A stretch of DNA of 61,081 nt, filler included, from Nemertoderma westbladi (taxonomy: Eukaryota > Animalia > Xenacoelomorpha): assembly GCA_032718475.1 (NCBI GenBank). It is 3 parts of 3 records of this genome, joined end to end, with 100 filler letters (N's around TTAATTAATTAA, not from the genome) between each part and the next. Parts side by side here need not be neighbours in the genome. Positions count along the whole stretch, not along the records: positions 1 to 28,567 come from JAUCBJ010000671.1; 2 more parts are not named here. One strand, given 5' to 3'. The translations under genes and the position numbers were made by a program. Numbering within the stretch: position 1 is the stretch's first letter; the number at the start of each line of letters is the position of its first letter. This document shows, one piece after another, positions 1 through 61,081 of this stretch. The notes below the pieces were generated by a model that was given only the letters and a program-made list of their open reading frames with translations, made no database searches and was not told the origin of the DNA.

Positions 1-375
1 CGGCGGTTTTTATGAAATGTAAAAATGGTGGTCTTATATTCAAACTGTCGGTTCTTGTTAATAAACACGTATGTAGTTTTCAAACCGGCGGTTTTTATGA
101 AATGTAAAAATGGTGGTCTTATATTCAAACTGTCGGTTCTTGTTAATAAACACGTATGTAGTTTTCAAACCGGCGGTTTTTATGAAATGTAAAAATGGTG
201 GTCTTATATTCAAACTGTCGGTTCTTGTTAATAAACACGTATGTAGTTTTCATACCGGCTGTTTTTATGAAATGTAAAAACGGTGGTCTTATATTCAAAC
301 TGTCGGTTCTTGTTAATAAACACGTATGTAGTTTTCAAACCGGCGGTTTTTATGAAATGTAAAAATGGCGGTTGT
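1..375. repeat. 85-bp tandem repeat, ~4.4 copies (inside the CACTG element)
   Basis: Unit starting cggcggtttttatgaaatg recurs at 1, 86, 171, 256 and 341. Confidence 0.95.
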
Positions 376-490
376 ATTTTCACAATTGCCGGTTCTTACT
401 ATACCGGTACATACAAAGAACCCTAAGTTGTATAATTCAACTGGTAATGCCGTTATTTCTGTATTACAGAGGCGTGATATGATATAACTA

Positions 491-770
491 ATTTACAATA
501 ATGACTGCCAGTTTATCACAGAACCACAGATTTACAATAATGACTGCCAGTTTATCACAGAACCACAGATTTACAATAATGACTGCCAGTTTATCACAGA
601 ACCACAGATTTACAATAAAGACTGCCAGTTTATCACAGAACCGCAGATTTACAATAATGACTGCCAGTTTATCACAGAACCACAGATATAGAACCGTAGA
701 TTTGCAATAATAACTGCCAGTTTATCACAGAACCACACACAGATTTACAAACTAATAACTGCCAGTTTGT
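491..770. repeat. 39-bp tandem repeat, ~6-7 copies
   Basis: Unit atttacaataatgactgccagtttatcacagaaccacag; explains the periodic ORF 501..710. Confidence 0.95.
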
Positions 771-2535
771 ATAATTATGTAAATATAAAAAGTAAATATA
801 TATAATCAAAACATAATTTTAAATTATTAATTAAACTTGGTTAAAATTAATTAATTTATATATATTAATTGAAATGAATTATCTAATATGGCTGAAAAGA
901 AGACAAATGATATTAAAATTAATAATCAAAACACTATTTGTTGATCATCAACTAAAATTAATTAGGATATCCATAAATCTAAATGAATTAAATATTTTCC
1001 TATATACTTAGCCGTGTGTATCCAATATGTATGTAGAGTATTGTATGCATTGGCCGTAAGCGTAGGGTAGGATGTAGGGATTAGATAAGGTAGGCTTTCA
1101 CCCCCCTCTCCCAATATCTCCATATTGTTACATTGAGCTTCATGTGTGCCCTGAATGTCCTGTGCTCCAACATTATTTTCAGATAACCACAGGTTTATAA
1201 GTTTGTTTTGCTCTTTATAACCACAGGTTAGTACGTTTTAACCGTTGGTTTTTCTTTAATAACCATAGGTTATAAATAAATTAAAGCATCAGTTTATTAA
1301 AATTACCGCCAGTTTTCTCAAATAAAACCGCCAGTTGACTGTTAATTAAACGGCGGTTTCGTAAAACTGGTTTATTTGGTTGCCGTTTTACCTGTGGTTT
1401 TTTGAGAAAACCGGCAGTTTTAAATAGTTGAAACGCCAGTTACCAGCAGTAAACCATAGGTTAATAAATTCCGATTAAGTATTCGACCGGGAATTTGCGT
1501 TAAACCAGAACCTGAGGTTACAGAAACCGGCAGTTCCTTGCGATATAAAATACCAGAGGTTTTACAACGCATTTTTAGGTTCTAAACAACTGGGGGTTAT
1601 GGAACCGCCGGTTTTACGAGAGATAATCAACCCCCGGTTTGCACAACTGCCAGTTCTTGGCAATGTTTATTTACCGCCGGTTTGTAAAAACAACCTGCGG
1701 TGGTTTTCGTTGCAAAACAACCCCAGGTAGTTCTTGCAAACCGGCATTTTTTTAACAAAATACCACCACTTACTTTTTTCAGTGTACCAGACGGAGCCAT
1801 AATTTTCGATTTTGCCTTTCAATTTTTAATTGTTACATCAGTATGAAACATGGTGTACCTTATTATTTAATCAAGATCTATACGAGTAGTTTAAATTCTC
1901 CGAAACAGTAATAACCAGCGCTGCCGAGGAGATTAGGAAATCTGCCAGAATGCTGTTGTTCCATTACACAAGACTTTGATGATCACGCGATGGACGTTTT
2001 AAATAATCATTTTCTATTGAAGCAATTCAACTGTCACCAACTTAATCCAAGTTGCTTATAGAGAACCAAATATATAATGAATACAATGAATTAGTTTCCA
2101 TGGTGTTAATATTCAATGCTGCGCGCAGGTGCTCGCTGCACTCACGGTCGCAATAATAATCACTACCCTTTAAGCAATAATTAATCAGATAGCCATGGCA
2201 ACAGCCAACCCATTCAATAAAGGATTATATAGTGAGGAATCAATATATAAAAATCCACTCGCCGTATTTATAAATCAAAATCCATAAACTATACCCAATT
2301 TATTTCAACTACTTAATATTAATTATTATGTAAATCTCGCACTCATAACTTATTCAACATTAATTAACTATTTTAATGTCTTACGCATACAATCCTTTTA
2401 TGCGATATAAGAAGTACAACTACCGTACGTAACTTAGATTAATTACCTTAAAAATATTAATTAATGCGATACATGTGACATCACAGGTTGTGAGAGTGAG
2501 TGTTGATTGCTTGAAGTATTGCGTGCATAGTGTCC

Positions 2536-3592
2536 ATGGCTCCGGACCGTACTGGTATGCGGAGAAGGCCACGACGTAGCAACTACCATCTTATTAACGA
2601 AGATGACAGGGAAATGGAACCAATGAAGGACATTGTCCGTCCACCTTACGCCGATAAAGTTTATCTCGCTCGCAAAAAGAAACCTGACTCCTGGGTTGTA
2701 ATCAGTGCAGAAGTGATACTCATACTCACACTGACTTGTTTAACTGTTTACGTGTATTATTACCTTGAACACGCACTATTCCAAGTACACAGGTTGGTTG
2801 GACTGAATTAATACTTAAAGCATCAGTTAATTGTGATAAATCGTGTTGGCACTGGAAGTTTCATCGTATTAACTAAGTCGCTGAAAGAGACGTGTGCGGC
2901 ATGAGATTGGTCTATCGAAACTTATAGCGGCATGTGATTGGCTGACCGAGAGGTATTACGATGTATGATTGGTTGACCGAGATGTAGCTGATTGGTTGGG
3001 TGAGCGGTTGGGTTGAGTGATTGGTTGCCGGACATGTATGGCGGCATGTGATTGGTTAATCGAGATGTATGGCGGCATGTGATTGGTTGACGGAGATGTA
3101 TGGCAGCTTGTGATTGGTTGACTGTGATGCATATTGGCGTGATTTGTTTATTTAAGTACAACAAACAGCAAGCGGTTTCTGACTATGGTGATAATTTGAA
3201 CCAGTGTTAATTTTCAGTAAAACAATTTTGGGAATTCATAACTTATCACAAGATTCCATTGTATCCAAAATATCCAACGAAATTATCTTATCTTTTCTAG
3301 ATTTTATGCCTACACAGGCCACCCTCACGCGCAGCACTTAGTCGCGGAGAAATACATTGAAGGTAAAATCGTAGACAAAGACTATCGTAAAGCTATAGAA
3401 TACTTTAAGATGGCGGCCGAACAAGGCCACGCCCACGCATCCTATAACCTAGCGGTCAGCCAGCTGAAAGGCCTCAACGTTGGGTTAAAGAAAGGAGAAG
3501 CTAGAAGGTTATTGGAGCACGCCGTGAACAACGGGATAGAGAAAGCTAAGGATGTGTTACACACTTACTGTTACAGGCATAAGGCCTGTTGA
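2536..3592 (+). CDS. Single-pass membrane protein with C-terminal Sel1-like repeats (~182 aa), 2 exons
   Basis: Exons 2536-2792 and 3301-3592, joined by a phase-2 GT..AG intron (ag|gttggt ... tcttttctag|a). The splice gives an open frame with a hydrophobic segment (VILILTLTCLTVYVYYYL) and then GHPHAQHLVAEKYIEGKIVDKDYRKAIEYFKMAAEQGHAHASYNLA, the Sel1 consensus. Confidence 0.85.
2895..3150. repeat. Degenerate ~30-35-bp tandem repeat in the Sel1-gene intron
   Basis: Recurring gatgtatggcggcatgtgattggttg-like units, about 8 copies, each with ATTGG/ATTTG. Confidence 0.7.
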
Positions 3593-7500: not shown

Positions 7501-10500
7501 AGACAGACAACCATACTTAAATATACACATCCCCTGTCTCCAATTTCCACTCAAACTCTTCTACTTTTATCGTCAGCTCGCCTTCCCAATTTCCAAACAA
7601 ACCTCATCTTCTCTTTAAAATGCCACACAAACCTCTTGTATTTTTATTGTTAGCTCCTCTTTCTCGACTTCCCATTCCATCTCTCGGAACTTATGTTGTT
7701 CGGATTCTTCCACCATTTGTTTAACTGCATCGTTTTCCAGATCAAATTCACATCTATGTCATAAGAAATGTAATAAAATTATTGAACAATATCCCAGTTG
7801 TAGTCGGCAGCAGTTTCTTTTTGTGATTTCGATTTCCCCACAACTTTGATATTTCCTACGATTTATCTGTACAACTCTAATATCCTGTATTACCGGCGAA
7901 TTAATATCTCGTTTCAATTTTTAAATTAAAATTATCCAATAAGGGAAAGGGGCTGGTTACAATGACACGCTATTCTAACCAAAACAATAAACTAAAGTCA
8001 ATAGAACAGTTTACAATCTTGTATTTAAGAGTAATCAGCTGATATTTACCACGATTTTTCCATGGAGAGGGATGAATTGTGATTGCATCAATAGTCAGCC
8101 ACACCTGCCCTACTGATGCTACTACTTTCCTGAATTTTGAATAATTCCAGGCCAACCTTTTGTGATGGAATTTCCATCGGTTCAAAGTAGCTGCAATGGG
8201 TTTAAAGTAAACGATTATTAACGCTAATTAATGTTAATTATCGATTGAGGAAAGGAATCAGGTTACAGTTGTTTATTGCAAAACAATAAACGAGAGTCAA
8301 GATTGCAGGTTCATGTTTTTCGTTGTCAGATATCGACGAATCGTTAACAACAGCTGCTGGGGTATAAAGAATGATAGATTGATATCCGGGTAGATTTTTT
8401 TCTGGATTACCATTTGTTCCAGATCCTGAAGTTCTAGAACATTTAATTTAAATAAGTCAAATCAAAATACGAGGTAAGACTTTATCTAGTAAGTAACTTT
8501 CGGAAAGATTGGAGTCCTAACTCCTGACCTAACTGATCCTAACTACCAACCTGACTGCTGACTGCTGACTGGTTATATAAATTATCCCTACCGGGCACTT
8601 GATTCGTCCATTGAAGTTGACGATTCCAACACGGCTCTTGTGATTGGTGGGTTGGATCGATCGTGATTTGAGATTTCTTTGTTTAATCGATTGGCGGTTA
8701 TGATTGGTTGATTTGTACGACTTCTCATGTGTGAGTAAGGTAGATTCCCTACATCGACGCGCGTAGAGAAATCCTCCTAAACGTTAGCGGATATATGTGA
8801 GGTGTGTTACGGATAGCGGTACTGCAAACATATACTCTCTATTGGTAAAGCAAACAGATACTCTCAAACACTAGACATTGGTACAGCAAACAGATACTCT
8901 CAAACACTATAGATATTGGTAAAGCAAACAGTTACTCTCAAACACTAGACATTGGTACAGCAAACAGATACTCTCAAACACTATAGATATTGGTAAAGCA
9001 AACAGATACTCTCAAACACTAGACATTGGTACATCAAACAGGTACTCACAAACACTAGACATTGGTACATCAAACAGTTTCTCTCAAACACTAGACATTG
9101 GTACAGCAAACAGATACTCTCAAACACTATAGATATTGGTAAAGCAAACAGATACTCTCAAACACTATAGATATTGGTAAAGCAAACAGATACTCTCAAA
9201 CACTATAGATATTGGTAAACCAAACAGATACTCTCAAACACTAGACATTGGTACAGCAAACAGATACTCTCAAACACTATAGATATTGGTAAAGCAAACA
9301 GATTCTCTCAAACACTATAGATATTGGTACAGCAAACAGATACTCTCAAACACTATAGATATTGGTAAAGCAAACAGATACTCTCAAACACTAGACATTG
9401 GTACAGCAAACATATACTCTCAAACACTATAGATATTGGTACATCAAACAGATACTCAGAAAAACTAGACATTGGTACAGCAAACAGACACTCACAAAAA
9501 CTACACATTGGTACAGCAAACAGACACTCACAAAAACTACACATTGGTACAGCAAACAGATACTCAGAAAAACTAGACATTGGTACAGCAAACAGATACT
9601 CTCAAACACTAGACATTGGTACAGCAAACAGATACTCTCAAACACTATAGATATTGGTAAAGCAAACAGATTCTCTCAAACACTATAGATATTGGTACAG
9701 CAAACAGATACTCTCAAACACTATAGATATTGGTAAAGCAAACAGATTCTCTCAAACACTATAGATATTGGTAAAGCAAACAGATTCTCTCAAACACTAT
9801 AGATATTGGTACAGCAAACAGATACTCTCAAACACTATAGATATTGGTAAAGCAAACAGATACTCTCAAACACTATAGATATTGGTAAAGCAAACAGATA
9901 CTCTCAAACACTAGACATTGGTACAGCAAACAGATACTCTCAAACACTATAGATATTGGTACAGCAAACAGATACTCTCAAACACTATAGATATTGGTAC
10001 AGCAAACAGATACTCTCAAACACTATAGATATTGGTACAGCAAACAGATACTCTCAAACACTAGACATTGGTACAGCAAACAGATACTCTCAAACACTAT
10101 AGATATTGGTACAGCAAACAGATACTCTCAAACACTATAGATATTGGTACAGCAAACAGATACTCTCAAACACTATAGATATTGGTACAGCAAACAGATA
10201 CTCTCAAACACTATAGATATTGGTAAAGCAAACAGATACTCTCAAACACTAGACATTGGTACAGCAAACAGATACTCTCAAACACTATAGATATTGGTAC
10301 AGCAAACAGATACTCTCAAACACTATAGATATTGGTAAAGCAAACAGATTCTCTCAAACACTATAGATATTGGTACAGCAAACAGATACTCTCAAACACT
10401 ATAGATATTGGTAAAGCAAACAGATTCTCTCAAACACTATAGATATTGGTAAAGCAAACAGATACTCTCAAACACTATAGATATTGGTAAAGCAAACAGA

Positions 10501-13500
10501 TTCTCTCAAACACTATAGATATTGGTACAGCAAACAGATACTCTCAAACACTATAGATATTGGTAAAGCAAACAGATACTCTCAAACACTAGACATTGGT
10601 ACAGCAAACATATACTCTCAAACACTATAGATATTGGTACATCAAACAGATACTCAGAAAAACTAGACATTGGTACAGCAAACAGACACTCACAAAAACT
10701 ACACATTGGTACAGCAAACAGACACTCACAAAAACTACACATTGGTACAGCAAACAGATACTCAGAAAAACTAGACATTGGTACAGCAAACAGATACTCT
10801 CAAACACTAGACATTGGTACAGCAAACAGATACTCTCAAACACTACACTGAAAAAAGTAACTACATCTCGTTTGAAAAAGTGCCACTATCAATTATTAGT
10901 GGCATTAATTAATTTTTAAAGTTGCGATTTTATTAAACTGCAATTTTTTTCGAAATATGAAATTATTTATTTTTCCAAATTACAAAAACCCATTTTGTTA
11001 AATTTAATTAAATGTACTTCAAGAATATACCAGGTTATGGAAATTACTAAATATATTAAAGTTCCACTTTTTTAAATTTCTGTAAAAAGGTGCGCTTTTA
11101 AACAATTTATTGTTGTGTTGTAAAGTGCTACTTTAAAACAAAAAATTAAAACGTGTCCTTTTCTGTAAAAAGTTGCGATTTTAAACAATTTATTGTTATG
11201 TGTTGTAAAGTGCTACTTTAAAACAAAAATTTAAAAAGTACCCTAATCAGCATACTAATACACACATACAAAAATATGTATGTTGTGCAATCTAAATTTT
11301 GGGTGCAGTATTGCAAGGGTGAGGGTGTTGTGGGGGGGGGGGGGGGGGGTGGTTGGTCACGTCGTATTCATGTATATTGGTAGGTAAAAGTAGGCCTATC
11401 ATATCTCCTGCATCCTATCCACAGCCTGATAGCTGCACAGCATGCAGTTCTCAGAGTACCGGTACTGCTGGACTGGAGTTTACTGATGAACAGCATAACT
11501 GCCAAGTGTGCTCCTGGTGTGCTGTGCTTTGCAGATTTGTGCTAGTGCGTGTAGTGCTAACTAAACTAATCTAACTGCCTTTCTTAAAAAAGTGTTAAAA
11601 CAGTAAAAAAAAACATTACCGGGACGCGGTACATACCTCCACCACTCCACCGGTACGGTAGCCTACATCAGTACCTACATACAATGTCGCGGTGTTGCGG
11701 TAAAGGCGATAATCTAAGTGCAGAGTTTAGTTTCTGCCCACACTCTGGGGAGGAACAGAAAAAAAACACTGCTTGTCAAAGTTGCGGGAAACAGCTAGCA
11801 CAGTAGCAGCTAGATCCTGTATGGGTTAGTTGCCCATTTTGCCCAGTGCGTCCACATACCAACATGGGGATGGGTACTGGTACCGGTACATCTGGATGTG
11901 ATACCGGTGGTCCTACAGCTACCTGTACCGGCGGTGCTGCAAGTGCTAGTTGTCATCGAACACCACGATCTCAATTAGATACGAAAGTCGAAAATGGAAT
12001 CACGTATTATATTCCACCTCTACGCGAATCGTCTTCCGGAAATAAGCAACCGAGAGTCCCAGTAATTCAACTGGAAATAACCGCACAAGATGTAGCCAAG
12101 GATACTCATGGATTTCGTCGAGCCGTTCGTCAATTTCTATCTGACTTCGAAAGTCGGAATATTTGCGATATTTATCAAATGGCGGAATCAGTATGTTCTG
12201 TGTATCCGGAGATGCAGATTAAACACCACCGCCTTCACGATAAAACTGCATTTTTCCGTCATAAGTTATCCGTACACAAGGCGAACAAGTCTTACCGGCA
12301 CAGGGGTGCTGCAGCCGATAGGCCTAAGGATACCACCGTTGATCCATCCAAGGCCTACAACAAGGGCGATGACAATGTAAGTGTTACTACCGGTACCGAT
12401 ACTTCGGTAAAATCGACTGCTGTGGCGGATCAAGTGTTGAGTAAGGCTGCAACTAAGAGATTTACTGGGTGCAATGCAAACGAATGAAAGTGAACGTGTT
12501 GACGGCTAAGAAAAAATTTAAAAAACCAAGAAGGAAATAGGTTCTTGTAGACCTACAGGAGGATCTGCGGAGTTCAGATGATCCCGAATCGGATAATTCC
12601 GATTCAACAACCGCTTCCAGTTCGAGCCTCGAGTCAGTGTCTATTTCGGAGTCAGATTTAGGAGATACTGACAATGTTCCTGGAGGAGGAGGCGGCGCTC
12701 TCATTTGGGCGAGAATGAGAAAAAAGGATATACCCTGGCCTGGTAAGGTTTCTGTTGCACCAGATGGAACTGACCCTCCTCCGGAAAAAAATGGGGGGTT
12801 GTCTATGGGTATACTTTTTTGGGACGGGGAATGCTTGTTGGGTGAGGGAAGTCCAGGAAGAATATATATTCCCTTACAAAGAATTCCGCGCGGAATTTAG
12901 CTACCCTAAAGGCCAAGTGCCCCACTCATTCGCAGCCGCTCTAGAAAATATTGAGAAGGAGTACCTTAGTCGAGAGTACGGTACTGAGACTGTCAACGTA
13001 ACTGAGTCATAAGTTGTAAATAGGACACTGAAATCGTTAGAACTGATACGGCAGAGAATAATAATTTAGTTATGTTATGGCGAATGGCGTTTTGTCAGTT
13101 ACAAACTAATGAACTGAATTTTGTTGCAAATATGGATAGTTTAGGCTGAACTGTGGTGTTTTATTTTGTGTAGAATGTAGATTGGTCATGCTTGGTCATG
13201 ACATTGTTCATGTTATCTTCATATAGATGGAAGATAGGTGCACAGTAGCAGGATTGCATCTGTGCGTTAAGAACTAAACTGAACTTATTATATTTTAGGC
13301 ATTTTATTATATCGATTACATGGATTAGTTATTTTGTTTTTATATTGCCTTATTATTGTAGTACTGTCAACTAACATGTACGACATTGTAATATTCTGTA
13401 TGCAGGCGGTATGGCCTTACTGACCAGTCCAGTATAGGCCAGTCCGTGCATGTAATATATTTGTCGTACATGTTCGTTGCGTTATACGTTATATGTCATG

Positions 13501-16500
13501 TGTTATACCAGTATATATAACTATCTGTTTATGATGTAACCGAAGCAGCGGCTGGCATAGCAACTGTAAAACTGTTCTGTGTTAAGTATTTGATCAATCT
13601 CGTGTATATTAATAGCGATAATTATAATAATTGATTCTCGTGTTGTTTATTATTCTTTATTAAACTTTTATGGGGATAAACTTTGGGGTCAATATTCATC
13701 ATACCTTAAAAATATGACTTCATTTAATTTAAAGAAATTTACACTCATTATTAAAAATAATATAAGTTCCCCTTAGATAAGCAAACCAAACTAGTTCTTC
13801 TTTACAGTGAAAAGTACCTCTTTTTCACATACTAAGTAATATAAATTGATCTTAAATATTGCGGGGAGTGGTATTTTTAAATAGAAAGAAGCACTTTAAT
13901 TGGCAATCAAGTACCACTTTATATTTTAATAAGTGCTGCTTAATCTAAAAAGTGCATGTTTTAAATGATTAATCGTACAAATAAAGTACCTATTACAAAT
14001 AAAAGTACCTCTTTTTCACATAATAAGAAATATAAATGCATCTTAAATATACGGGGAGTGGCATTTTTAAATAGAAAGTAGCACTTTAATTGGAAATAAA
14101 GTACCACTTTATATTTTAATAAGTGCTGCTTAATCTAAAAAGTGCATGTTTTAAATGATTATCCCACAAGTAAAGTACATATTACATAGAAAAAGATGAG
14201 CTTTTTTCCTACTAATGAATATAAAAACGTAAATAATATTCAGAAAAGTGTCGTTTTGTAAACAGAAAATCAGTACTAACATTATCAAAAAAGTACCACT
14301 TTTTAGAGTAATTAAAAGTGATCTTTTCTGCTCCTTGAAAAAGTGCCATTTTTATATTGTAATAAAAAGTGACTCTTTTTGCTACTTGAAAAAGTGCCGG
14401 TTTTTCAAAAAAGCGTATCTCGTTTGAGTACTCAAAACCAGATGCACTTTTTTGGAAAATCGGCACTTTTTTATGAAAAAAGTACAACTTCGTTTTTTCA
14501 GTGTAGACATTGGTACAGCAAACAGATACTCTCAAACACTAGACATTGGTACAGCAAACAGATACTCTCAAACACTATAGACATTGGTACAGCAAACAGA
14601 TACTCTCAAACACTATAGATATTGGTAAAGCAAACAGATACTCTCAAACACTATAGATATTGGTAAACCAAACAGATACTCTCAAACACTATAGACATTG
14701 GTAAAGCAAACAGATACTCTCAAACACTAGACATTGGTACAGCAAACAGATACTCTCAAACACTATAGATATTGGTAAAGCAAACAGATACTCTCAAACA
14801 CTAGACATTGGTACAGCAAACAGATACTCTCAAACACTATAGACATTGGTACAGCAAACAGATACTCTCAAACACTATAGATATTGGTAAAGCAAACAGA
14901 TACTCTCAAACACTAGACATTGGTACAGCAAACAGATACTCTAAAACACTAGACATTGGTACAGCAAACAGATACTCTCAAACACTAGACATTGGTACAG
15001 CAAACAGATACTCTCAAACACTATAGATATTGGTAAAGCAAACAGATTCTCTCAAACACTATAGACATTGGTACAGCAAACAGATACTCTCAAACACTAT
15101 AGATATTGGTAAAGCAAACAGATACTCTCAAACACTATAGACATTGGTACAGCAAACAGATACTCTCAAACACTATAGATATTGGTACATCAAACAGATA
15201 CTCTCAAACACTAGACATTGGTACAGCAAACAGATACTCTCAAACACTATAGATATTGGTAAAGCAAACAGATACTCTCAAACACTAGACATTGGTACAG
15301 CAAACAGATACTCTCAAACACTAGACATTGGTACAGCAAACAGATACTCTCAAACACTATAGATATTGGTAAAGCAAACAGATACTCTCAAACACTAGAC
15401 ATTGGTACAGCAAACAGATACTCTAAAACACTAGACATTGGTACAGCAAACAGATACTCTCAAACACTAGACATTGGTACAGCAAACAGATACTCTCAAA
15501 CACTATAGATATTGGTAAAGCAAACAGATACTCTCAAACACTATAGATATTGGTAAACCAAACAGATACTCTCAAACACTTAGACATTGGTACAGCAAAC
15601 AGATACTCTAAAACACTAGACATTGGTACAGCAAACAGATACTCTCAAACACTAGACATTGGTACAGCAAACAGATACTCTCAAACACTAGACATTGGTA
15701 CAGCAAACAGATACTCTCAAACACTAGACATTGGTACAGCAAACAGATACTCTCAAACACTATAGATATTGGTACAGCAAACAGATACTCTCAAACACTA
15801 TAGATATTGGTAAAGCAAACAGATACTCTCAAACACTATAGATATTGGTAAAGCAAACAGATACTCTCAAACACTAGACATTGGTACAGCAAACAGATAC
15901 TCTCAAACACTATAGATATTGGTACAGCAAACAGATACTCTCAAACACTATAGATATTGGTAAAGCAAACAGATACTCTCAAACACTAGACATTGGTACA
16001 GCAAACATATACTCTCAAACACTATATAGATATGGTAAAGCAAACAGATTCTCTCAAACACTAGACATTGGTACAGCAAACATATACTCTCAAACACTAT
16101 AGATATTGGTACATCAAACAGATACTCAGAAAAACTAGACATTGGTACAGCAAACAGACACTCACAAAAACTACACATTGGTACAGCAAACAGACACTCA
16201 CAAAAACTACACATTGGTACAGCAAACAGATACTCAGAAAAACTAGACATTGGTACAGCAAACAGATACTCAGAAAAACTAGACATTGGTACAGCAAACA
16301 GACACTCACAAAAACTACACATTGGTACAGCAAACAGATACTCAGAAAAACTAGACATTGGTACAGCAAACAGACACTCACAAAAACTACACATTGGTAC
16401 AGCAAACAGACACTCACAAAAACTACACATTGGTGCAGCAAACAGACACTCACAAAAACTACACATTGGTACAGCAAACAGACACTCACAAAAACTACAC

Positions 16501-19500
16501 ATTGGTACAGCAAACAGATACTCACATGAACTACGGACAGCGGTACAGCGTATCGATCGTCGATAGACCGTTGATGCGACTCGGGAATCAGTTCATTACC
16601 GTTATCTACTCTAGTAGTCCCTGTGGACTCGAAAGGTTTTACGTGAGCTAACAACTTGCTCCCCTTAGATCGGGCGCTCCAAACTTCCTCTCTGTTTGAT
16701 TCTGAAAGAGTATAAAGTATATAGGAGAACAGTGTCGGATGAGTAAACATTTATTGTGAGGGATAATCAAAATAATACTATTTAGAGAGAAGCTTATTTA
16801 GGTAGTCGAGAGACGAGACCCTAATAAAGAAATTAATTTTTAGTTGTTTTCCCCGCTAACTCAATACCGTTGACTTCATGTTCTCTTAGGGGCTCTGTAT
16901 TTTGGAGCCAAAACATGCTATCATGGTAAATATCAACAATGTGTTTATGTTATCATCGAACATTCCAAAAATAATCAAAGATATGGAATATATACTTTAT
17001 AATATGATATTATTGTCAAGATTGTTTTATGTAAAAAATTTGTACATAAAACAATCATTTGTAAGGCAATGAATAAAAAAGTTCATGTGATGTTTTTGGC
17101 CTATAACATGCGGAAATGTAACACCCCAAAATTAAACACTAATAATCTATGTTTAATTAGGAAGTAATAAATTTGTACATATTTACAAAAAATACATTAT
17201 ATAATACATAATTATTATATATATTGATAGTGTATGTACCGTGGTGTAGTTAGTATCAGTGACGTCACTACATACCTTTAACGAGCTCCTGGGATTTCAA
17301 TCTTTCTATATCCATGTTGCTTCTCTTTAGTTTGGCTGCCAAATCTTCATTGACGAGATTCACTTCATCCAGTCGTTGTTTCAACAGATCCCTTTCGGAT
17401 TCGGCAGCGGTCGCCACTTTCCTTAGAGCCGTCGACTCCTCACAAGCGGCCGTTATCTGTTGTCGCATAGGCTCGATCATTCTAGAACGTTCCCGCAACC
17501 AATCCTGCTCCTTAGCGGCGAACTGAAGTTTCTCTTCGCGCAGGACTTTGAGATCAAACCCTTGAGCCTCGACTTTGAGACGGAGTTTCCTCGTTTCCTC
17601 TTGTAATCCGACGAGCAATTCCGCGGACTCGTTCACCGGAACCGGGGGTGGGCTCCCGACGAAGTCGACGACGCTCGGAGTGCTGCCGGAGGAGGCCGAT
17701 CGAACGATCCTCTCTAACTCCGCCGACAACTCACTGATTCTCTTCTCCAATTCTCCGACTAATCGGTCCGATTCGAGTTTAACCGATTTCATCGCGGCTT
17801 TTAAATCCTCGTTTTCGTCGATTAGCGAGGACATCTGCAACGAGAGCTGCAGAGTGTCATCCATACCTCCAACAGACGACAATCGCACCGATTTCGATTT
17901 CAGTCCCTCCACCGATTCCTCCAAATCCGCTATCACCTTCCTCATATTTTCGCATTCCCTTTCGGATTCATCCAAGCTCGATTGTTTTCGGTTGCTAAGT
18001 AACGTATGCTCTCGGACCTGGTGTTGAAGACGCGCGTTTTCTCGATGTACAGAACTCCATTGTTCTCGTGAAGGTGGGTATAACTGCGTGGGTGTGTCCT
18101 CTAACAAACCCAGCCCAGTCTGGTTTGGATAGACCTCATCTTCCGCTGATGTTCTAGAATTAAACAATTATAAGCAGTTAAAACTTAAATAAAATTATAC
18201 CAATACCAATTTACCAATACGAAGTACATTTACATACTACAGTAACCAATTCAGTAACCAATACAGTAACCAATATAATGTATTCGAAAATATGTGCATT
18301 ACACTCTGAAGCTGAACCCATACCATTGACGACTAGGAACGTAAAATAAACATTTTTTCATACAATTGAAGGCCAAACATATACGTCACTGAACACACTC
18401 ACTTAAATTTGAAACACATGTGATACACATGGTAGTTTAGTTTTAATTTTGGATATCTTTATTAATATCATTAAACACAATTATCATGAATGCGTTATAC
18501 ATTAAAAACACACTTGGACATCCCCCCCCCCCTTCCCCATCCTGTTGTTACTCAATGCCGGTTGAGTTTGTAACCTAACATACCTGTAGCGTCTCCTCTG
18601 GTAGAATAAACCCTTGTAACAACACAATGACATATTAATAATATTTTCAAATATAATGGAAAGATGGTTTGAGGCAACTGGTTGGTTGTTATCTAAACAC
18701 TCATGTAAAACAATAATTTTATTTCACAAAATATCCTGATTTATTTATAACTTTTTATATAAGGTTTTGGGAATAATCATTAGACTTTTTCCTCCAACCA
18801 ACTTTTTTTCCTAAAAATAGTGGATTGTTACCTTGAAATTAGTATTTATTTTCTTAATGACGACTGTACGACGAAATTAATTTCTTGTTATTTTTTTTAC
18901 ATTTTGACTTTGACTCGGTAGTGTGACCGCGGCCTAACTGGTGCAATATCGACGGAGACACTTTTTTCAAACGCTTATAGCTAAAGAATGAAGACGCAAA
19001 TATAAATTCTGGCTCACCCAGTATGGGGAGGGGAGGGCAGATAAGGAGGGAGATGAACCAATCTCTATTTCGGGTGTAAACGTTACGCCAACAGCCGACA
19101 ACCAACAGCAGACAACCGACAGAAGACAACCGACAGAAGAAAACCGATAGCAGACAACCGACTGCAGACAACCGACAGCAGACACCAGACAGCAGACAAC
19201 CAACAGCAGACAACCGACAGCAGACAATCGACAACAGACAACCGACAGAGAGACAACCAACAGCAGACAACCGACAGCAGACAACCGATAGCAGTTCATT
19301 CGTTATGGTTAGATAAATTATATGGGCCATGGGGCCACAATTGTTCAAGATTATATTTTATACAGCACAATAGTTCAGTAGAAACCTGTAAGCCTACAAT
19401 ATATTAAAATAATCGATTTGATTTTTGTTTTAAAAAGGGATAAGGTAATATTAGTCATTCCAGCTGCCAGCAGTGAGGTTTTATTGTCGTGTCGGCCTAC

Positions 19501-22500: not shown

Positions 22501-24768
22501 CGCCTAAATGGGCGACACCATCAGAAGTTTGCGGAGGTTGTCCTGGTGGTGGCTGGTATGTCCAGATGACTAGATTCAAATTATCAATCCTCAGTAGTGT
22601 CCGGGGTGGCCGGCGCCCTTGGAGAGATTTTGGGTTTTGGCAATGGTGCTGGTTTGCGTAGCAAAATTCAATTTCAATAATTATTTATTGATCAAAAACT
22701 CACGATACATTTTAGATAGATAAAATATAGTAATTTATTACAAGAATATTAATAATTTATCGGTCAATACGCAATACCCGACCCAAAAATACCGTAAAAC
22801 TAACAATACCCGACCCAAAAATACCGTAAAACTAACAATACCACAGCGCACAGAACAAGTGGACTAACCGCACGTTTGTGCCAGTATAGTAAATGTGACA
22901 GTAGAACAAGTGTTTACGCAGCACTCATGTGCATGTACTGTTGTAGCACAAGTGCCCCGCCCCCAGCAAAAGTGTACCCACAAGCACAGCACAATTGTAA
23001 GAGGGTCACAAATGTGCCCGAAGAACAAGTGTGTCCACTCCACAAGTGATCCGCATTGCAAGTGTGGCAATAAGACGAGTATTCCACAGGACAAGTTTGC
23101 CAAAATCACAAATGTGCCTCCAGCAGAAGTGTGCAACCCGCTCAAGTATGTCCTTCGCACAATTTTGCCCATAGAGAATTGTTCGAAGCACGAGTGTAAC
23201 TTTGCGACAGCGCAGCGGTCGCCTTTTTCCCATGACCAATAAATTATAATTTAGGTTAGATTGGCCAACGTCTAACCTTTGCAAAGTATAGATTTCCATA
23301 ATATTATTTATTACCTGACTCTGGTGTTTCCTGATTATCACATTTTACACGACTTTCTTCGGATTCTCTTAGCTCTCTGAGTCTGTTTTCGGATTTTCGT
23401 AACTTTAGCGCCGCTGTTCTAAAGTCTCGTCTTGTTCTCTGAAGATCCTTTTCCAGCTCCCTATTAACATATAATGGGAAATAATTAATGTATGAACCTC
23501 TCTAACTTTAGATGTATTTCTTAGTCTGTAAGAGTCCTTCCTATAAGGTATCAAGTAGAACATGTTTTACAAATTTCTAAAAAATACTGAATTCATCTAT
23601 TGAAAAGTAACATATTAAACTAAATTCCATATTTGTAGGCTGAGTATCTACGAATCTATAGTCATAGAGGTCTGACACCAAATATATATATCTGCGTGAT
23701 ACACCGAAGGTATAGATTTTTTTCTGAAAATTTGTTCTGACTGTAGAAAGTGAACCAGATCACTAGGTTTTACTTAGGTCCAATGGCCCAAATACGCATT
23801 GCCTGTTGTCAAAACCCTGAAAATTTGTCGCGACCTTCGATGGTGCCTCAGAATTAAATTATCGGTCATTTTTAAAACGTTCTAAGCTTTTGTCTACTAA
23901 AACGCATAAGAAATTTATACAGAGCCGTTGCAAGATACCGAACGTCGGAGGCGGATGGGTAGGCAGAAAGTGCTCCCATCACAGATCACATATATCGACC
24001 CATACTACGCCACTAGGATGCAAAACAGTAAATCCCAAATTCTACTGCATTATTATGTTTCATCACACCGACCGGCTACCGTAGGGGTGGCCGTCATGCC
24101 TGCAGTGCTACGGGGTAGAGCTGTTTTTTCACAAGAAGATGTTTCCGAGGCTGTATATAAATCGCATCTCAAGTGGTAATTATATCAAATAGCGTTCTAA
24201 GCGAAAGGTCTGGCATTAGAGCCCCAGAAAGGGAAGGTCCTGTTTTCGTTAAGCTGTTAACTCTAAGCAAGGCGATCTGTAAGAAACTAGCTTCAGACCA
24301 CCCAGCTGTTATGGGGACCTGGCATAGGCTGTGGAGTTTAATGTTACAGATAACAGCCAGGAGAGAGGAAGGATAATTGGGTTTATATAATTGGGATAAT
24401 TGTGATTCGGAATTTGGTTAGTTTCACGTTCACCAATATATATTAATAATACCAAATAACTTCGCTTTTATTTTTATTGGCCTATTAAATTATACGGAAT
24501 TGCATCTACTTTACTTATTTTCCAGTTTGTACCGATGTAGTCCTACTTCTATCTATGAACTAGCTTTCAGTTACCTGTATTGGTTTTCGTCATTCTCTCT
24601 GAATCTATTTTCTGTCTCCAACAAAAGTGTTTTTAAATCCTTCACCTGAGATCTCAGTTTAATGTTCTCACCATTGCAACATTCTAATCGTTCGGTAAGA
24701 GTTTGTATTTCCCGCGCGTTTGGGTCTTTATCCCCATTGGGTGAATGACATTCATCACCCCCTCCCAT
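4537..24768 (-). CDS. Large coiled-coil protein (~984 aa), ~14 coding exons; family not recognised
   Basis: Manually assembled, phase-consistent GT-AG exon chain on the minus strand: 24768-24575, 23460-23315, 22020-21932, 21342-21106, 20475-20417, 18153-17276, 16701-16526, 8776-8592, 7753-7633, 7291-7172, 6990-6790 (less sure), 6442-6251, 5442-5243 and 4693-4537. Much of it is E/K/L/R-rich heptad sequence. The 3' end is uncertain: a donor at 4585 could instead join 4212-4045. Confidence 0.7.
5480..5780 (+). mobile_element. Pao/BEL LTR-retrotransposon pol fragment (RNase H region)
   Basis: Translates [10 protein letters not shown]...[12 protein letters not shown]...FVTNRVAII...[18 protein letters not shown], matching the BEL/Pao motifs IPRLEL, WTDS, FVxNRV and NPADxxSRG. 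Intronic and antisense to the host gene. Confidence 0.9.
5996..6122. repeat. (CCGGCT)n hexamer microsatellite
   Basis: Direct reading; source of the PAPAPA/RSRS/GAGA ORFs. Confidence 0.9.
10846..14503 (+). mobile_element. CACTG-ended (CMC/EnSpm-like) non-autonomous DNA transposon, 3658 bp
   Basis: TIRs CACTGAAAAAA / TTTTTTCAGTG. Removing the element and one TA restores the satellite unit aaacacTAgacattgg, so the TSD is 2-bp TA. Many subterminal AAAAGT(A/G)C motifs and a ~190-bp direct duplication (13811/14001). No transposase ORF seen. Confidence 0.88.
11684..13012 (+). pseudogene. Transposon-borne decayed gene: double zinc ribbon - helical middle region - acidic linker - PWWP domain
   Basis: ATG 11684 gives MSRCCG...FSFCPHSG...[23 protein letters not shown] (stop at 11804), in frame with ORF 11846-12487. 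There is a frameshift near 12460-12480 and a stop at 12538. It then reads [17 protein letters not shown] and, after a frameshift near 12790, [28 protein letters not shown]...FAAALENIE, which are PWWP hallmarks. Confidence 0.75.
19091..19293. repeat. 14-bp minisatellite (cagcagacaaccga)n
   Basis: Direct reading, ~14 degenerate copies. Confidence 0.9.
20690..20766. repeat. (TAGGYR)n hexamer microsatellite
   Basis: gtaggtataggcgtaggtgtaggt... Confidence 0.85.
20858..21097. repeat. 28-bp tandem repeat, ~8.5 copies, starting ~8 nt inside the intron after the donor at 21105
   Basis: Unit ttctagaaagtgattttataacaaggtg, period 28 (20865, 20893 ... 21089). Confidence 0.95.
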
Positions 24769-28696: not shown

Positions 28697-31600
28697 GGTT
28701 TGATGATTTCGATGTTGATACAGTTCCTATTGTAATAGCCAATAGTAGTGACTCGAACTCCCTGGTCGCCATGGCGAAAAAGTCTCGTATAATAATCAAC
28801 TGCGTGGGTCCATTCCGTCACCACGGTGAACCGGTTGTGGAGGCATGCGTGGACTACCACTGTCATTACGTTGATATTAGTGGTGAACCCGAGTTTATGG
28901 AGAGAATGGAATGGAAGTACAATAGGTTGGTATTTATAGAGCTCGGAAGTACAATAGGTTGGTATTTATAGAGCTCGGAAGTACAATAGGTTGGTATTTA
29001 TAGAGCTCGAGAAGTACAATAGGTTGGTATTTATAAAGCTCGGAAGTACAATAGGTTGGTATTTATAGAGCTCGGAAGTACAATAGGTTGGTATTTATAG
29101 AGCTCGGAAGTACAATAGGTTGGTATTTATAGAGCTCGGAAGTACAATAGGTTGGTATTTATAGAGCTCGGAAGTACAATAGGTTGGTATTTATAGAGCT
29201 CGGAAGTACAATAGGTTGGTATTTATAGAGCTCGGAAGTACAATAGGTTGGTATTTATAGAGCTCGGAAGTACAATAGGTTGGTATTTATAGAGCTCGGA
29301 AGTACAATAGGTTGGTATTTATAGAGCTCGGAAGTACAATAGGTTGGTATTTATAGAGCTCGGAAGTACAATAGGTTGGTATTTATAAAGCTCGGAAGTA
29401 CAATAGGTTGGTATTTATAGAGCTCGGAAGTACAATAGGTTGGTATTTATAGAGCTCGGAAGTACAATAGGTTGGTATTTATAGAGCTCGGAAGTACAAT
29501 AGGTTGGTATTTATAGAGCTCGGAAGTACAATAGGTTGGTATTTATAGAGCTCGGAAGTACAATAGGTTGGTATTTATAGAGCTCGGAAGTACAATAGGT
29601 TGGTATTTATAGAGCTCGGAAGTACAATAGGTTGGTATTTATAGAGCTCGGAAGTACAATAGGTTGGTATTTATAGAGCTCGGAAGTACAATAGGTTGGT
29701 ATTTATAGAGCTCGGAAGTACAATAGGTTGGTATTTATAGAGCTCGGAAGTACAATAGGTTGGTATTTATAGAGCTCGGAAGTACAATAGGTTGGTATTT
29801 ATAGAGCTCGGAAGTACAATAGGTTGGTATTTATAGAGCTCGGAAGTACAATAGGTTGGTATTTATAGAGCTCGGAAGTACAATAGGTTGGTATTTATAG
29901 AGCTCGGAAGTACAATAGGTTGGTATTTATAGAGCTCGGAAGTACAATAGGTTGGTATTTATAGAGCTCGGAAGTACAATAGGTTGGTATTTATAGAGCT
30001 CGGAAGTACAATAGGTTGGTATTTATAGAGCTCGGAAGTACAATAGGTTGGTATTTATAGAGCTCGGAAGTACAATAGGTTGGTATTTATAGAGCTCGGA
30101 AGTACAATAGGTTGGTATTTATAGAGCTCGGAAGTACAATAGGTTGGTATTTATAGAGCTCGGAAGTACAATAGGTTGGTATTTATAGAGCTCGGAAGTA
30201 CAATAGGTTGGTATTTATAGAGCTCGGAAGTACAATAGGTTGGTATTTATAGAGCTCGGAAGTACAATAGGTTGGTATTTATAGAGCTCGGAAGTACAAT
30301 AGGTTGGTATTTATAGAGCTCGGAAGTACAATAGGTTGGTATTTATAGAGCTCGGAAGTACAATAGGTTGGTATTTATAGAGCTCGGAAGTACAATAGGT
30401 TGGTATTTATAGAGCTCGGAAGTACAATAGGTTGGTATTTATAGAGCTCGGAAGTACAATAGGTTGGTATTTATAGAGCTCGGAAGTACAATAGGTTGGT
30501 ATTTATAGAGCTCGGAAGTACAATAGGTTGGTATTTATAGAGCTCGGAAGTACAATAGGTTGGTATTTATAGAGCTCGGAAGTACAATAGGTTGGTATTT
30601 ATAGAGCTCGGAAGTACAATAGGTTGGTATTTATAGAGCTCGGAAGTACAATAGGTTGGTATTTATAGAGCTCGGAAGTACAATAGGTTGGTATTTATAG
30701 AGCTCGAATGAAGTACAATAGGTTGGTATTTATAGAGCTCGGAAGTACAATAGGTTGGTATTTATAGAGCTCGGAAGTACAATAGGTTGGTATTTATAGA
30801 GCTCGAATGAAGTACAATAGGTTGGTATTTATAGAGCTCGGAAGTACAATAGGTTGGTATTTATAGAGCTCGGAAGTACAATAGGTTGGTATTTATAGAG
30901 CTCGGAAGTACAATAGGTTGGTATTTATAGAGCTCGGAAGTACAATAGGTTGGTATTTATAGAGCTCGGAAGTACAATAGGTTGGTATTTATAGAGCTCG
31001 GAAGTACAATAGGTTGGTATTTATAGAGCTCGGAAGTACAATAGGTTGGTATTTATAGAGCTCGGAAGTACAATAGGTTGGTATTTATAGAGCTCGGAAG
31101 TACAATAGGTTGGTATTTATAGAGCTCGGAAGTACAATAGGTTGGTATTTATAGAGCTCGGAAGTACAATAGGTTGGTATTTATAGAGCTCGGAAGTACA
31201 ATAGGTTGGTATTTATAGAGCTCGGAAGTACAATAGGTTGGTATTTATAGAGCTCGGAAGTACAATAGGTTGGTATTTATAGAGCTCGGAAGTACAATAG
31301 GTTGGTATTTATAGAGCTCGGAAGTACAATAGGTTGGTATTTATAGAGCTCGGAAGTACAATAGGTTGGTATTTATAGAGCTCGGAAGTACAATAGGTTG
31401 GTATTTATAGAGCTCGGAAGTACAATAGGTTGGTATTTATAGAGCTCGGAAGTACAATAGGTTGGTATTTATAGAGCTCGGAAGTACAATAGGTTGGTAT
31501 TTATAGAGCTCGGAAGTACAATAGGTTGGTATTTATAGAGCTCGGAAGTACAATAGGTTGGTATTTATAGAGCTCGGAAGTACAATAGGTTGGTATTTAT

Positions 31601-43354: not shown

Positions 43355-44151
43355 GGTGGAAGCGTTTACTGTGGAAGATCACCCTTGGTGGTGAACAGGT
43401 ATTCCTTTGGGAAACAGAGTGGAAGGGTTTACTGTGGAAGATCACCCATGGTGGTGAACAGGCATTCCTTTAGGAAACATAGCGGAAGGGTTTACTGTGG
43501 AAGATCACCCATGGTGGTGAACATGTATTCATTTAGGTAACAGAGTGGAAGGGTTTACTGTAGAAGAAGATCACCCATGGCCATGGTGGTGAACAGGCTT
43601 TCATTTAGAGAACAGAGTGGAAGGGTTTACTGTGGAAGATCACCCATGGTGGTGAACAAGATTTCCATTAGGAAACAGAGTGGAGGGGTTTAGTGGAAGA
43701 TCACCCATGGTGATGAACAGGCATTCCTTTAGGAAATAGATTGGAAGAGTTTACTGTAGAAGAAGATCACCCATAGTGGTGAACAGGCATTCATTTAGGA
43801 AACAGAGTGGAAGGGTTTACTGTGGAAGATCACCCATGGTGGTGAACAGGCATTCCTTTAGAGAACAGAGTGGAAGGGTTTACTGTGGAAGATCACCCAT
43901 GGTGGTGAACAAGCTTTCCTTTAGGAAACAGAGTGGAAGGGTTTACTGTGGAAGATCACCCATGGTGGTGAACAGGCATTCCTTTAGGAAACAGAGTGGT
44001 AGGGTTTACTGTGGAAGATCACCCATGGTGGTGAACAAGCTTTCCTTTAGGAAACAGAGTGGAAGGGTTTACTGTGGAAGATCACCCATCCATGGTGGTG
44101 AACAGGCATTCCTTTAGGAAACAGCGTGGAAGGGTTTACTGTGGAAGATCA
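43355..44151. repeat. 63-bp tandem repeat, ~12.5 copies
   Basis: Unit ggaaacagagtggaagggtttactgtggaagatcacccatggtggtgaacaggcattccttta. Confidence 0.95.
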
Positions 44152-44174
44152 CACATGCATATATGAAACACGTT

Positions 44175-46039: not shown

Positions 46040-46860
46040 CATTATAGCGCTAACCCCCCCCCCCCCTCCCCCCCTTTAACTAAAAGATTCTCCCATTCAA
46101 TATAAAATAAATTCTTTCCAACCATTGAGGCGATCGGCTGGTGATTCAGCCTTAACCTTGGTGGTTGGTTGGCTTTTTCGACCAGCAAGCAAGTTGATCG
46201 ATCTCCATGCCTGGGATGATTGCCTGCTGTCGTCAGCATCATTGATGGCATCAACCTGTTAGTTTATTAGCTCCTGTAAATTACCTGAGTACTGCCTGTT
46301 CAGGGACCTAGATGCGGCCTTAACTGCATTCTTGGCCGCTGTAGTCTGTTTGAGTCGGGACTCTTTCTGCGCCTTGTAGAGGTCATTTCGGCACTTCTGA
46401 ATTTTGTTGTCAGTCCAGGGGGCCCGTTTCCTGTTTCGAGGGTATACAGGAACTGTTTCTGCAGCTGCTAACTTAACTGCCTCTGTGAAGGCAGTATAGC
46501 CCTCACAGTGATCTGCCGCCTCAGAGGCAAGAGCCTCATACCTGTTGCTCAGCTGTAGTGTGAAGCTGGATCTCACACTTGGCTGTTGCAACAGAGAGGA
46601 CCAGTCATGCCGCGGCAAGGCAGATTTCGTTGTTCTGCTAGCACGCAGACTAAGTCTTACCTTGGCCACAATAAGGCGGTGATCACTGGAGAAGGGTCGT
46701 AGTGTAAATGCATTACAGTCTTGTATAGAGCTCCTGTATTTCCTACGAAACAGGATATGGTCTATCTGGGACTCGTGACCACTGGGTTCACTATGAGTCC
46801 ATAGCTTTCCAGTTCGCTTCTTGAACTGGGTTCCAGCCGAAAACAATCCATTTCCAGATA
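46040..46860 (-). mobile_element. RTE-type LINE fragment (endonuclease C-terminus and linker)
   Basis: KLWTHSEPSGHESQIDHILFRRKYRSSIQDC...FSSDHRLIVAKVRLSL...LSNRYEAL: APE motifs IDHI and SDH. Confidence 0.9.
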
Positions 46861-51578: not shown

Positions 51579-51886
51579 ATCGCAAACATTATTTTTTGAT
51601 TTTACAGATCATATTAAATCAACTTTTCTTACGTTTTAATTGCCTTTTGTGTATTATCGATTAGGTTCCCCCTTATCTGCACTGACAGAACTCAATTACA
51701 CATTCAGCGTTGCAGCATTGTATGTATCTGTGTATTGTTTATAGTACCGGTACCGTAGGCCTACCGATACCTGGAACCTACTGACTTACCAACACTGCCA
51801 ACTGCAGCACTGTAGCCTACCAACACTCATGTAACTTTCACTCCTTCTCTACGCTGTACGGCATTCTGATCTGTCAATACCAATTC

Positions 51887-60960: not shown

Positions 60961-61081
60961 TTTTAATCAGCCATAGATCACAATATAGATGACAATGTGT
61001 TTCAGAAATAAATAATTCCAGTCAGCAGAAATCATATAGTGGTAACATACATCCATAAATACGAGCATTCATTGTCTTATA

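What the first reader, a model, noticed from the sequence alone, without database searches (positions are those of the whole stretch)
10846..14503. CACTG/EnSpm-like transposon carrying a zinc-ribbon + PWWP chromatin-reader cargo gene
Seen: clean TIRs, a TA TSD and no transposase. There is one intronless decayed ORF (11684-13012) with paired CxxC knuckles, a helical middle region, a K/R-rich NLS-like stretch ([10 protein letters not shown]), an acidic Ser linker and a C-terminal PWWP domain. Established: PWWP domains bind H3K36me2/3 nucleosomes of gene bodies, LEDGF's PWWP tethers HIV integrase there, and some plant DNA transposons encode anti-silencing accessory proteins (TnpA, VANC). Inference: this family may encode its own chromatin-targeting or anti-silencing factor, which fits its position inside an intron. 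It could be an undescribed TE accessory system.
Basis: partly seen in the sequence, partly recalled or inferred. Interest (0 to 1): 0.82.

Follow-up and report, generated by a model that had tools for sequence, protein, structure and literature searches.

The report
Animal transposon carrying a PWWP reader
A repeated jumping DNA element with no enzyme of its own, in an animal genome, carries one gene (broken in this copy) for a protein ending in a PWWP nucleosome-binding domain; it likely served as the element's own helper for working in chromatin, but its methyl-reading pocket is incomplete and steering into gene bodies is untested.

Summary
10846-14503 is a 3,658-bp CACTG...CAGTG element with an 11-bp perfect TIR, TA flanks and motif-rich subterminal repeats. 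It has no transposase and sits in a satellite inside a host intron. It is multi-copy in four public runs, with MITE-like and deleted derivatives. Its ORF ends in a real PWWP domain (Pfam 40 bits; confident fold), nearest to GLYR1/N-PAC rather than LEDGF. Contigs of other copies lack both frameshifts (4 of 4 runs) and the first stop (2 of 4 runs, one sample), and they complete the CxxC zinc ribbon. An open ~435-aa family gene is therefore likely, but no single contig shows it. Best reading: a TnpA-like helper gene with a captured nucleosome-binding domain (0.5). Main rival: passive Pack-type cargo (0.3). I found no transposon-encoded PWWP in five literature searches or in this scan's earlier notes. 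New variant of a known kind.

The parts
10846..14503 (.). Non-autonomous DNA transposon, 3,658 bp, CACTG...CAGTG
   Evidence: multi-copy with different flanks
10844..10845 (.). Left TA, likely target-site duplication
14504..14505 (.). Right TA, likely target-site duplication
10846..10856 (+). Left TIR, perfect 11-bp core CACTGAAAAAA
14493..14503 (-). Right TIR, perfect 11-bp core
10857..11260 (.). Left subterminal region: 5 copies of motif AAAGYRCH (0.4 expected; motif chosen from the data) and an 85-bp tandem pair
13791..14492 (.). Right subterminal region: 15 copies of the same motif (0.6 expected), 190-bp and 51-bp tandem repeats
14389..14471 (.). Subterminal palindrome, 37-nt arms (fold of 14385-14503 as ssDNA: z = -6.8)
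11684..13012 (+). Cargo ORF, broken here by 2 stops and 2 frameshifts; 435 aa if the three indels are absent; GC 47% against 32% for the rest of the element
11684..11845 (+). Cys-rich N-terminus, double-zinc-ribbon-like; other copies read CPHC and CPSC where this copy reads CPHS and CQSC (4 of 4 runs)
   Evidence: Pfam DZR below cut-off
11984..12319 (+). Middle domain, no relative found; candidate DNA-binding domain (inferred only)
   Evidence: all without a usable hit
12508..12537 (+). Basic NLS-like stretch [10 protein letters not shown]
   Evidence: function inferred
12565..12680 (+). Acidic Ser/Asp-rich linker
   Evidence: low pLDDT
12694..12980 (+). PWWP domain, GLYR1/N-PAC-like, cage lacking the Y18-type aromatic; split here by the frameshift at 12783
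8840..16523 (.). 36/38-nt satellite array into which the element inserted
8777..16525 (-). Host intron (7,749 bp) of a coiled-coil gene, holding satellite and element
   Evidence: predicted from splice sites and frame, no RNA

Best explanation
This is a transposase-less, multi-copy cut-and-paste element with CMC/EnSpm-type ends whose single gene likely encodes the family's own helper protein, built from a zinc ribbon, an unknown middle domain and a PWWP domain that was likely taken from a host GLYR1/N-PAC-type gene. Shown: ends, TA flanks, dispersal, derivatives, PWWP fold, incomplete cage, and absence of most of this copy's breaks in other copies. Inferred: intact copies make a ~435-aa nuclear protein; its zinc ribbon or middle domain binds the roughly 20 family-specific subterminal motifs, as maize TnpA binds Spm ends; its PWWP grips neighbouring nucleosomes mainly through DNA and an only partly specific histone pocket; together this keeps the ends accessible or transcribed for a transposase supplied in trans by an autonomous element not seen here. 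The protein would act in trans, so broken and deleted copies such as this one can still be moved.
For: Ends match zebrafish EnSpm-N49B (TIR CACTCAAAAAAATGA, 2-bp TSD; PMC13189230 passage) and the CA..TG / 2-5-bp TSD rule for CMCT elements (PMC12730594 section 3.1.6). Subterminal motif: 5 + 15 copies against about 0.5 expected at each end, and 0 in a second element of this window that shares the terminus but has its own motif (20 copies); this is the layout expected where each family has its own sequence-specific helper. (4 runs, 3 studies): the 5-nt duplication and the extra base at 12783 are absent from contigs in 4 of 4 runs; the 15-nt stop-bearing segment is absent in 2 of 4 (X1, X2, one sample); S->C and Q->P changes that complete two CxxCG motifs stand in 4 of 4. 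Listed ORF differences are 6 synonymous to 8 non-synonymous against 23% expected (p = 0.076, omega about 0.4). PWWP is folded and complete (blocks of pLDDT 79-94; Foldseek HRP3/HDGFL2/LEDGF PWWP, best E 1.2e-6, TM 0.81 by target). Nearest sequences are GLYR1-type (best 46%, 51.9 bits), but here PWWP is C-terminal and no dehydrogenase follows, so this is not a copied GLYR1. En/Spm elements are known to encode helpers that bind their ends (10.64898/2026.08.24.746577, passages and section 6).
Against: No contig spans the whole ORF. The second stop is seen as a sense codon in only one displayed X1 loose end, which belongs to a variant with another frameshift at 12520; that variant is the main X3 contig, so PWWP is out of frame there. 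X3 and X4 do not show the clean 15-nt absence. Derivatives lacking the zinc ribbon (junction at 12024) or half the PWWP (12783->13487) are common in the contigs. The selection signal is not significant and rests on 14 ORF differences among the 40 of 89 that the tool displayed. The middle domain has no relative or recognisable fold, so DNA binding is conjecture, and separate TnpA-like proteins were reported as restricted to flowering plants. No autonomous partner with these ends could be sought.
Confidence: 0.5

Rival explanations
1. Pack-type cargo. A non-autonomous element captured an intronless host gene, or pieces of several, and multiplied it passively; the protein has no role in transposition and all copies are decaying.
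For: Host genes here can be intronless. A host housekeeping protein is only about 33-41% identical to its nearest relatives, so 46% identity of the PWWP to foreign GLYR1 does not exclude a recent capture from this host's own gene. Frameshifted and deleted variants are abundant. No relative of the N-terminal and middle part was found in other genomes. Selection is not significant.
Against: Three parts lie in one likely frame of 435 codons. The architecture differs from GLYR1 (N-terminal PWWP plus dehydrogenase; PMC6004073 passages). None of the displayed loose ends at 85% likeness marks a host flank at the PWWP borders (25 loose ends not displayed). The cage has drifted from the F/Y found in 18 of 21 aligned relatives, which a fresh copy of host GLYR1 would probably keep.
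Confidence: 0.3
2. Built-in LEDGF-like tether. The protein links the transposase or the element ends to H3K36me2/3 nucleosomes and steers insertions into transcribed gene bodies.
For: True PWWP of the H3K36me3-reading GLYR1/HDGF group. M15, W21 and F44 equivalents are kept. This copy lies in an intron.
Against: The Y18 equivalent is K or D, with a one-residue insertion. X1 and X3 each list a single G>T place in the whole element (11040), so their contigs do not restore a Tyr codon; X2 and X4 cannot be excluded. Y18A in LEDGF strongly lowers specificity. One site, in a satellite array, cannot show targeting.
Confidence: 0.12
3. Accidental fusion. Internal deletion of a larger autonomous element joined the start of one gene in frame to the end of another; the chimera has no function as such.
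For: The family readily makes internal deletions (3 kinds of junction). An earlier scan note describes such a case in another animal EnSpm-like element (e1-9542376, unchecked).
Against: No transposase remnant in the frames scanned. Even so, PWWP would still have been part of a parent element's gene.
Confidence: 0.08

Closest known systems
Animal CMC-EnSpm non-autonomous elements, e.g. zebrafish EnSpm-N49/N49B (PMC13189230, passages); animal CACTA 'TRC' elements (PMC1636069, passages)
   Same: CACT-start TIR followed by an A run, 2-bp TSD, no transposase, moved in trans
   Different: TA target preference; carries a long coding gene with PWWP; transposase partner not identified, so the superfamily rests on the ends only
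Maize/Arabidopsis Spm TnpA and VANDAL VANC helpers (10.64898/2026.08.24.746577, passages and section 6)
   Same: Second, non-catalytic gene in an element with motif-studded ends; proposed trans-acting role
   Different: No tandem-HTH domain could be shown; has a zinc ribbon and a host-type PWWP; animal host; function untested
ESTA (EnSpm-like with TA TSD; PMC12730594, section 3.1.6)
   Same: CA..TG termini with TA duplication; carries a chromatin-related extra gene
   Different: ESTA was described from rust fungi and carries TET/JBP; defined by a transposase that is absent here
TE-captured chromatin readers: Chromo in Gypsy/MAGGY, Chromo-hAT in Ephydatia, PHD-retrotransposons in cnidarians (10.1101/2021.11.30.470311, section 10)
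   Same: A histone-reader domain recruited by a transposon
   Different: Those are mostly Chromo/PHD fused to TE enzymes.
GLYR1 / N-PAC / NDF (PMC6004073, passages) and LEDGF/HDGF PWWP (PMC3663649, passages)
   Same: PWWP sequence and fold; 3 of 4 cage residues
   Different: PWWP is C-terminal, no dehydrogenase or IBD, Y18-type aromatic missing, gene is inside a multi-copy transposon

Membership tests
CMC/EnSpm (CMCT) DNA transposons | 5'-CAC..GTG-3' termini | tested here: met
   rule
CMC/EnSpm (CMCT) DNA transposons | Short TSD (2 bp in animal members) | tested here: met
   TA/TA; 40 vs 5 of 95 satellite junctions favour duplication; 4 of 5 readable other flanks TA. No empty-site allele was seen.
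CMC/EnSpm (CMCT) DNA transposons | Repeated subterminal motifs in both orientations | tested here: met
   (motif chosen post hoc); feature recalled from En/Spm and stated for Spm ends
CMC/EnSpm (CMCT) DNA transposons | DDE transposase with C(2)C and H(3-4)H motifs in the element or its autonomous partner | tested here: inconclusive
   none inside the element; partner cannot be searched without the genome. Filed as EnSpm-like by its ends only.
PWWP domain (PF00855) | Profile score above cut-off and PWWP fold | tested here: met
H3K36me-reading PWWP (LEDGF/HDGF/GLYR1 type) | Complete cage M15, Y18, W21, F44 | tested here: not met
   3 of 4; Y18 position is K/D in this copy; cage definition
H3K36me-reading PWWP (LEDGF/HDGF/GLYR1 type) | Preferential binding to H3K36-methylated nucleosomes | not testable with these tools
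   needs a binding assay
GLYR1/N-PAC orthologue | N-terminal PWWP plus C-terminal dehydrogenase domain | tested here: not met
   PWWP is C-terminal, stop follows at 13010-13012
Double zinc ribbon (PF12773) | Profile score above cut-off; paired CxxC | tested here: inconclusive
   10.2 bits vs 27.3 in this damaged copy; other copies complete the CxxC motifs
TnpA-like / BEN-type helper proteins | Tandem HTH or BEN DNA-binding domain | tested here: inconclusive
   no Pfam hit; single-sequence model pLDDT 47, best Z 5.3. The BEN/SAMD3-like resemblance was recalled and comes from no call.
Pack-type captured gene fragments | Near-identity to a host gene outside the element; neutral evolution | not testable with these tools
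   no genome; partial synonymous/non-synonymous count inconclusive

The most novel reading that the evidence does not exclude
An animal EnSpm-like family has built its own LEDGF equivalent: a trans-acting protein that binds the element's ends with one part and active-gene nucleosomes with a PWWP taken from GLYR1/NDF, steering insertions into, or keeping copies expressed within, transcribed introns. It would be the first transposon-encoded PWWP helper and a rare case of a transposon recruiting a reader of active rather than silent chromatin.
Probability: 0.2. Interest if true: 0.8.

Novelty: new variant of a known kind. Interest (0 to 1): 0.52.

Why it matters
Transposons are known to recruit Chromo and PHD readers, and En/Spm elements are known to carry helper genes, but readers of active chromatin are rare among such captures (10.1101/2021.11.30.470311, section 10, says so for Bromo domains). 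A transposon-encoded PWWP helper would show a self-contained way to work in, or aim at, gene bodies, the job HIV borrows from host LEDGF. The comparison of insertion sites between this family and sister CACTG families without PWWP in the same genome makes it directly testable. If it is passive cargo, it is an ordinary capture with an unusual domain.

Tried and rejected
Homologue searches for the N-terminal/middle part found nothing (longer proteins, 1345 candidates, none at E<=0.01, similar lengths, 210 candidates, none at E<=0.1; ESM Atlas, best 0.76 and none; PDB sequences, none). The single-sequence model of the middle domain was unusable (pLDDT 47) and its structural matches (best Z 5.3) are noise. 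The Pfam Nucleolin_bd match (E 0.007-0.06, below cut-off) was rejected as chance. Metagenome scans found no relative (221 pattern matches, none confirmed, 0 matches). No RNA holder was listed; this says nothing on expression. Contig depth was not used as copy number. A complete table of ORF differences between copies could not be obtained, so the state of the second stop and of the cage codon in most copies stays open. Earlier scan notes hold no look-alike. The published version and Supplementary Table 6 of the chromatin-evolution paper were not available (bioRxiv supplements are closed) and may list PWWP-TE fusions; Repbase and Dfam cannot be searched here. Rejected: 'intronless, so TE-native' (host genes are intronless too); 'intronic, so targeted' (n = 1); an alternative in-frame N-terminus at the 12024 junction (the 30 displayed letters contain stops in frame, read by eye). 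No complex prediction was run, since no partner protein is in hand.
Full report
Element. The stretch 10846-14503 begins CACTG and ends CAGTG. The TIR is perfect for 11 bp and degenerate beyond. It interrupts a 36/38-nt satellite that runs 8840-10845 and 14504-16523. TA stands on both sides. Because the satellite has units with TA and with TATA at this spot, I counted them: the duplication reading restores a junction type found at 40 of 95 junctions, the no-duplication reading one found at 5 of 95. In contigs of other copies, 4 of 5 readable flanks are TA and 1 is CT (25 loose ends not displayed). A second element end in this window (1784) shares 15 terminal bases with the left end and is also followed by TA. 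The subterminal regions hold 5 and 15 copies of AAAGYRCH against 0.4 and 0.6 expected; the inner 2.5 kb holds 1, and the second element holds none but has 20 copies of its own motif (motifs were picked from the data). Both elements have a long palindrome 30-40 bp inside the right end. These ends fit animal CMC-EnSpm elements: zebrafish EnSpm-N49B has TIR CACTCAAAAAAATGA and a 2-bp TSD (PMC13189230, passages), and CMCT lineages share CA..TG ends with 2-5-bp TSDs, ESTA having TA (PMC12730594, passages and section 3.1.6). No transposase family was hit in 19 of 24 stop-free frames of 50 aa or more. The superfamily therefore rests on the ends.

Setting. The host is a divergent animal: its MLYCD is 33-41% identical to the 120 listed relatives, and ASCC1 and MLYCD lie in single long ORFs. 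The satellite and the element fill a predicted 7,749-bp intron (16525..8777) of a minus-strand coiled-coil gene, with canonical splice sites and an open frame over three exons. The cargo ORF is antisense to it. No genome is held.

ORF. 11684-13012 is 47% GC against 32% for the rest of the element. Read through with X, the C-terminal part scores 40 bits on PWWP (E 5.8e-10, cut-off 25.6). It folds confidently with a 22-sequence alignment (domain blocks pLDDT 79-94; 21 of 23 hits aligned, P0013 and P0021 left out) and matches HRP3, HDGFL2 and LEDGF PWWP structures (best E 1.2e-6). Among 1.84 billion representatives, 23 proteins score E<=0.001, the best at 46% identity and 51.9 bits. One is named GLYR1/N-PAC and several carry the GLYR1 dehydrogenase; LEDGF scores 26.8 bits. 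GLYR1 has its PWWP at the N-terminus (PMC6004073, passages), so the cargo is a new arrangement, not a copy of that gene. The N-terminus is a damaged double zinc ribbon. The middle domain has no detectable relative or fold.

The cage. LEDGF uses M15, Y18, W21 and F44; Y18A strongly lowers specificity for H3K36me3 nucleosomes with a much smaller effect on affinity (PMC3663649, passages). The cargo reads [12 protein letters not shown] where 18 of 21 aligned relatives have F or Y three places before W: M, W and F are kept, the Y18 place is K or D. X1 and X3 each show only one G>T place in the whole element, at 11040, so their contigs do not restore Tyr; X2 and X4 have unlisted G>T places and cannot be excluded. 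The domain therefore likely binds nucleosomes, with doubtful methyl specificity.

Other copies. Five public DNA runs of one organism, from 3 studies, hold the stretch or part of it; I laid 4 of them. They gave 222, 58, 87 and 14 contigs, several different flanks, and about 1.3-1.9% difference from this copy in the longest pieces. The 5-nt duplication and the extra base at 12783 are absent from contigs in 4 of 4 runs. The 15-nt segment is absent in X1 and X2, which are one sample; X3 and X4 do not show this. Changes that turn CPHS into CPHC and CQSC into CPSC stand in 4 of 4 runs. Without the three indels the frame is 435 aa. Against this: no contig spans the ORF; the second stop appears as ACG in only one displayed loose end, in a variant that has a different frameshift at 12520, and that variant is the main X3 contig. 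The X2 contig over this place has only the 5-nt difference and two unlisted substitutions, which is compatible with an open frame but does not show it. Derivatives are common: an 825-bp MITE-like contig joining 11250 to 14200 (X4, same junction as a loose end in X1-X3), a deletion 12783->13487 that removes half the PWWP (X1, X4), and a junction at 12024 that drops the zinc ribbon (X1-X3). The 14 ORF substitutions among the 40 of 89 displayed are 6 synonymous and 8 non-synonymous (23% synonymous expected, p = 0.076); this mixes this copy's own decay with family differences and is only a hint.

Mechanism. The most likely reading (0.5) is a family-borne helper acting in trans. Shown: mobile multi-copy element, family-specific end motifs, a folded PWWP, and a likely open ancestral frame. 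Inferred: nuclear import by the basic stretch, binding of the end motifs by the N-terminal half, nucleosome binding by PWWP, and help to a transposase from an unseen autonomous partner. Passive Pack-type cargo (0.3) remains open because the host's own genes cannot be compared. H3K36me3-guided targeting (0.12) is weakened by the cage and has one site behind it. An accidental deletion fusion (0.08) is possible.

What is known. En/Spm helpers (TnpA, VANC) are established, and a 2026 survey of 962 Spm protein models found separate TnpA-like proteins only in flowering plants and does not mention PWWP in its main text (10.64898/2026.08.24.746577, passages and section 6). Animal CACTA elements with non-transposase ORFs are described (PMC1636069, passages). 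Capture of chromatin readers by TEs is described across 172 genomes, mostly Chromo and PHD, with active-mark Bromo readers rare (10.1101/2021.11.30.470311, passages and section 10; its Supplementary Table 6 was not visible and may list PWWP cases). Five full-text searches pairing PWWP with transposon terms returned 2, 0, 0, 12 and 5 papers; from the listings and abstract starts (2, 0, 0, 9 and 4 listed) none reports a transposon-encoded PWWP. Repbase and Dfam could not be searched. Earlier notes of this scan hold no look-alike but describe BEN- and CIDE-N-bearing helper genes in other animal CMC elements (unchecked).

Verdict. A real feature and a new variant of a known kind: an EnSpm-like non-autonomous family with a zinc-ribbon-PWWP gene. 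The role as a helper is plausible and unproven; gene-body targeting is not supported by present evidence. Interest 0.52.

Noticed in passing
window 1-1784: Right part of a second CACTG-ended element (terminus shares 15 nt with this element's left end, followed by TA) with a different subterminal motif (AAMCYGSCRG, 20 copies), 85- and 39-bp tandem repeats and a similar subterminal palindrome (1676-1745). A natural control family.
   Followed up: partly
window 51785-52894 (+) and 54902-56383 (+): ASCC1-like (KH + AKAP7 domain) and malonyl-CoA decarboxylase genes, each in one long ORF, so apparently intronless; MLYCD only 33-41% identical to listed relatives.
   Followed up: partly
window 18153-8592 (-): Multi-exon coiled-coil host gene whose 7.7-kb intron is almost wholly satellite plus transposon; family not identified (weak Pfam coiled-coil hits only).
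   Followed up: partly
window 28913-35273, 37762-38447, 38558-40252: Large young tandem arrays (32 nt x 197, 10 nt x 69 at 100% identity, 17 nt x 100) with strong GC skew.
   Followed up: no
window 60426-60992 (+), 46259-46918 (-): ORFs with DUF6451 (E 1.5e-5) and a weak endonuclease hit; likely retrotransposon fragments.
   Followed up: no
window 3300-3592 (+) and 23006-23344 (-): By eye, a Sel1-repeat-like last exon and a Cys/His-rich, B-box-like exon; labels recalled, not tested.
   Followed up: no
window 43356-44157: 63-nt tandem repeat whose translation hits zf-nanos (E 1.3e-6, no single stretch passing); probably a repeat artefact.
   Followed up: no
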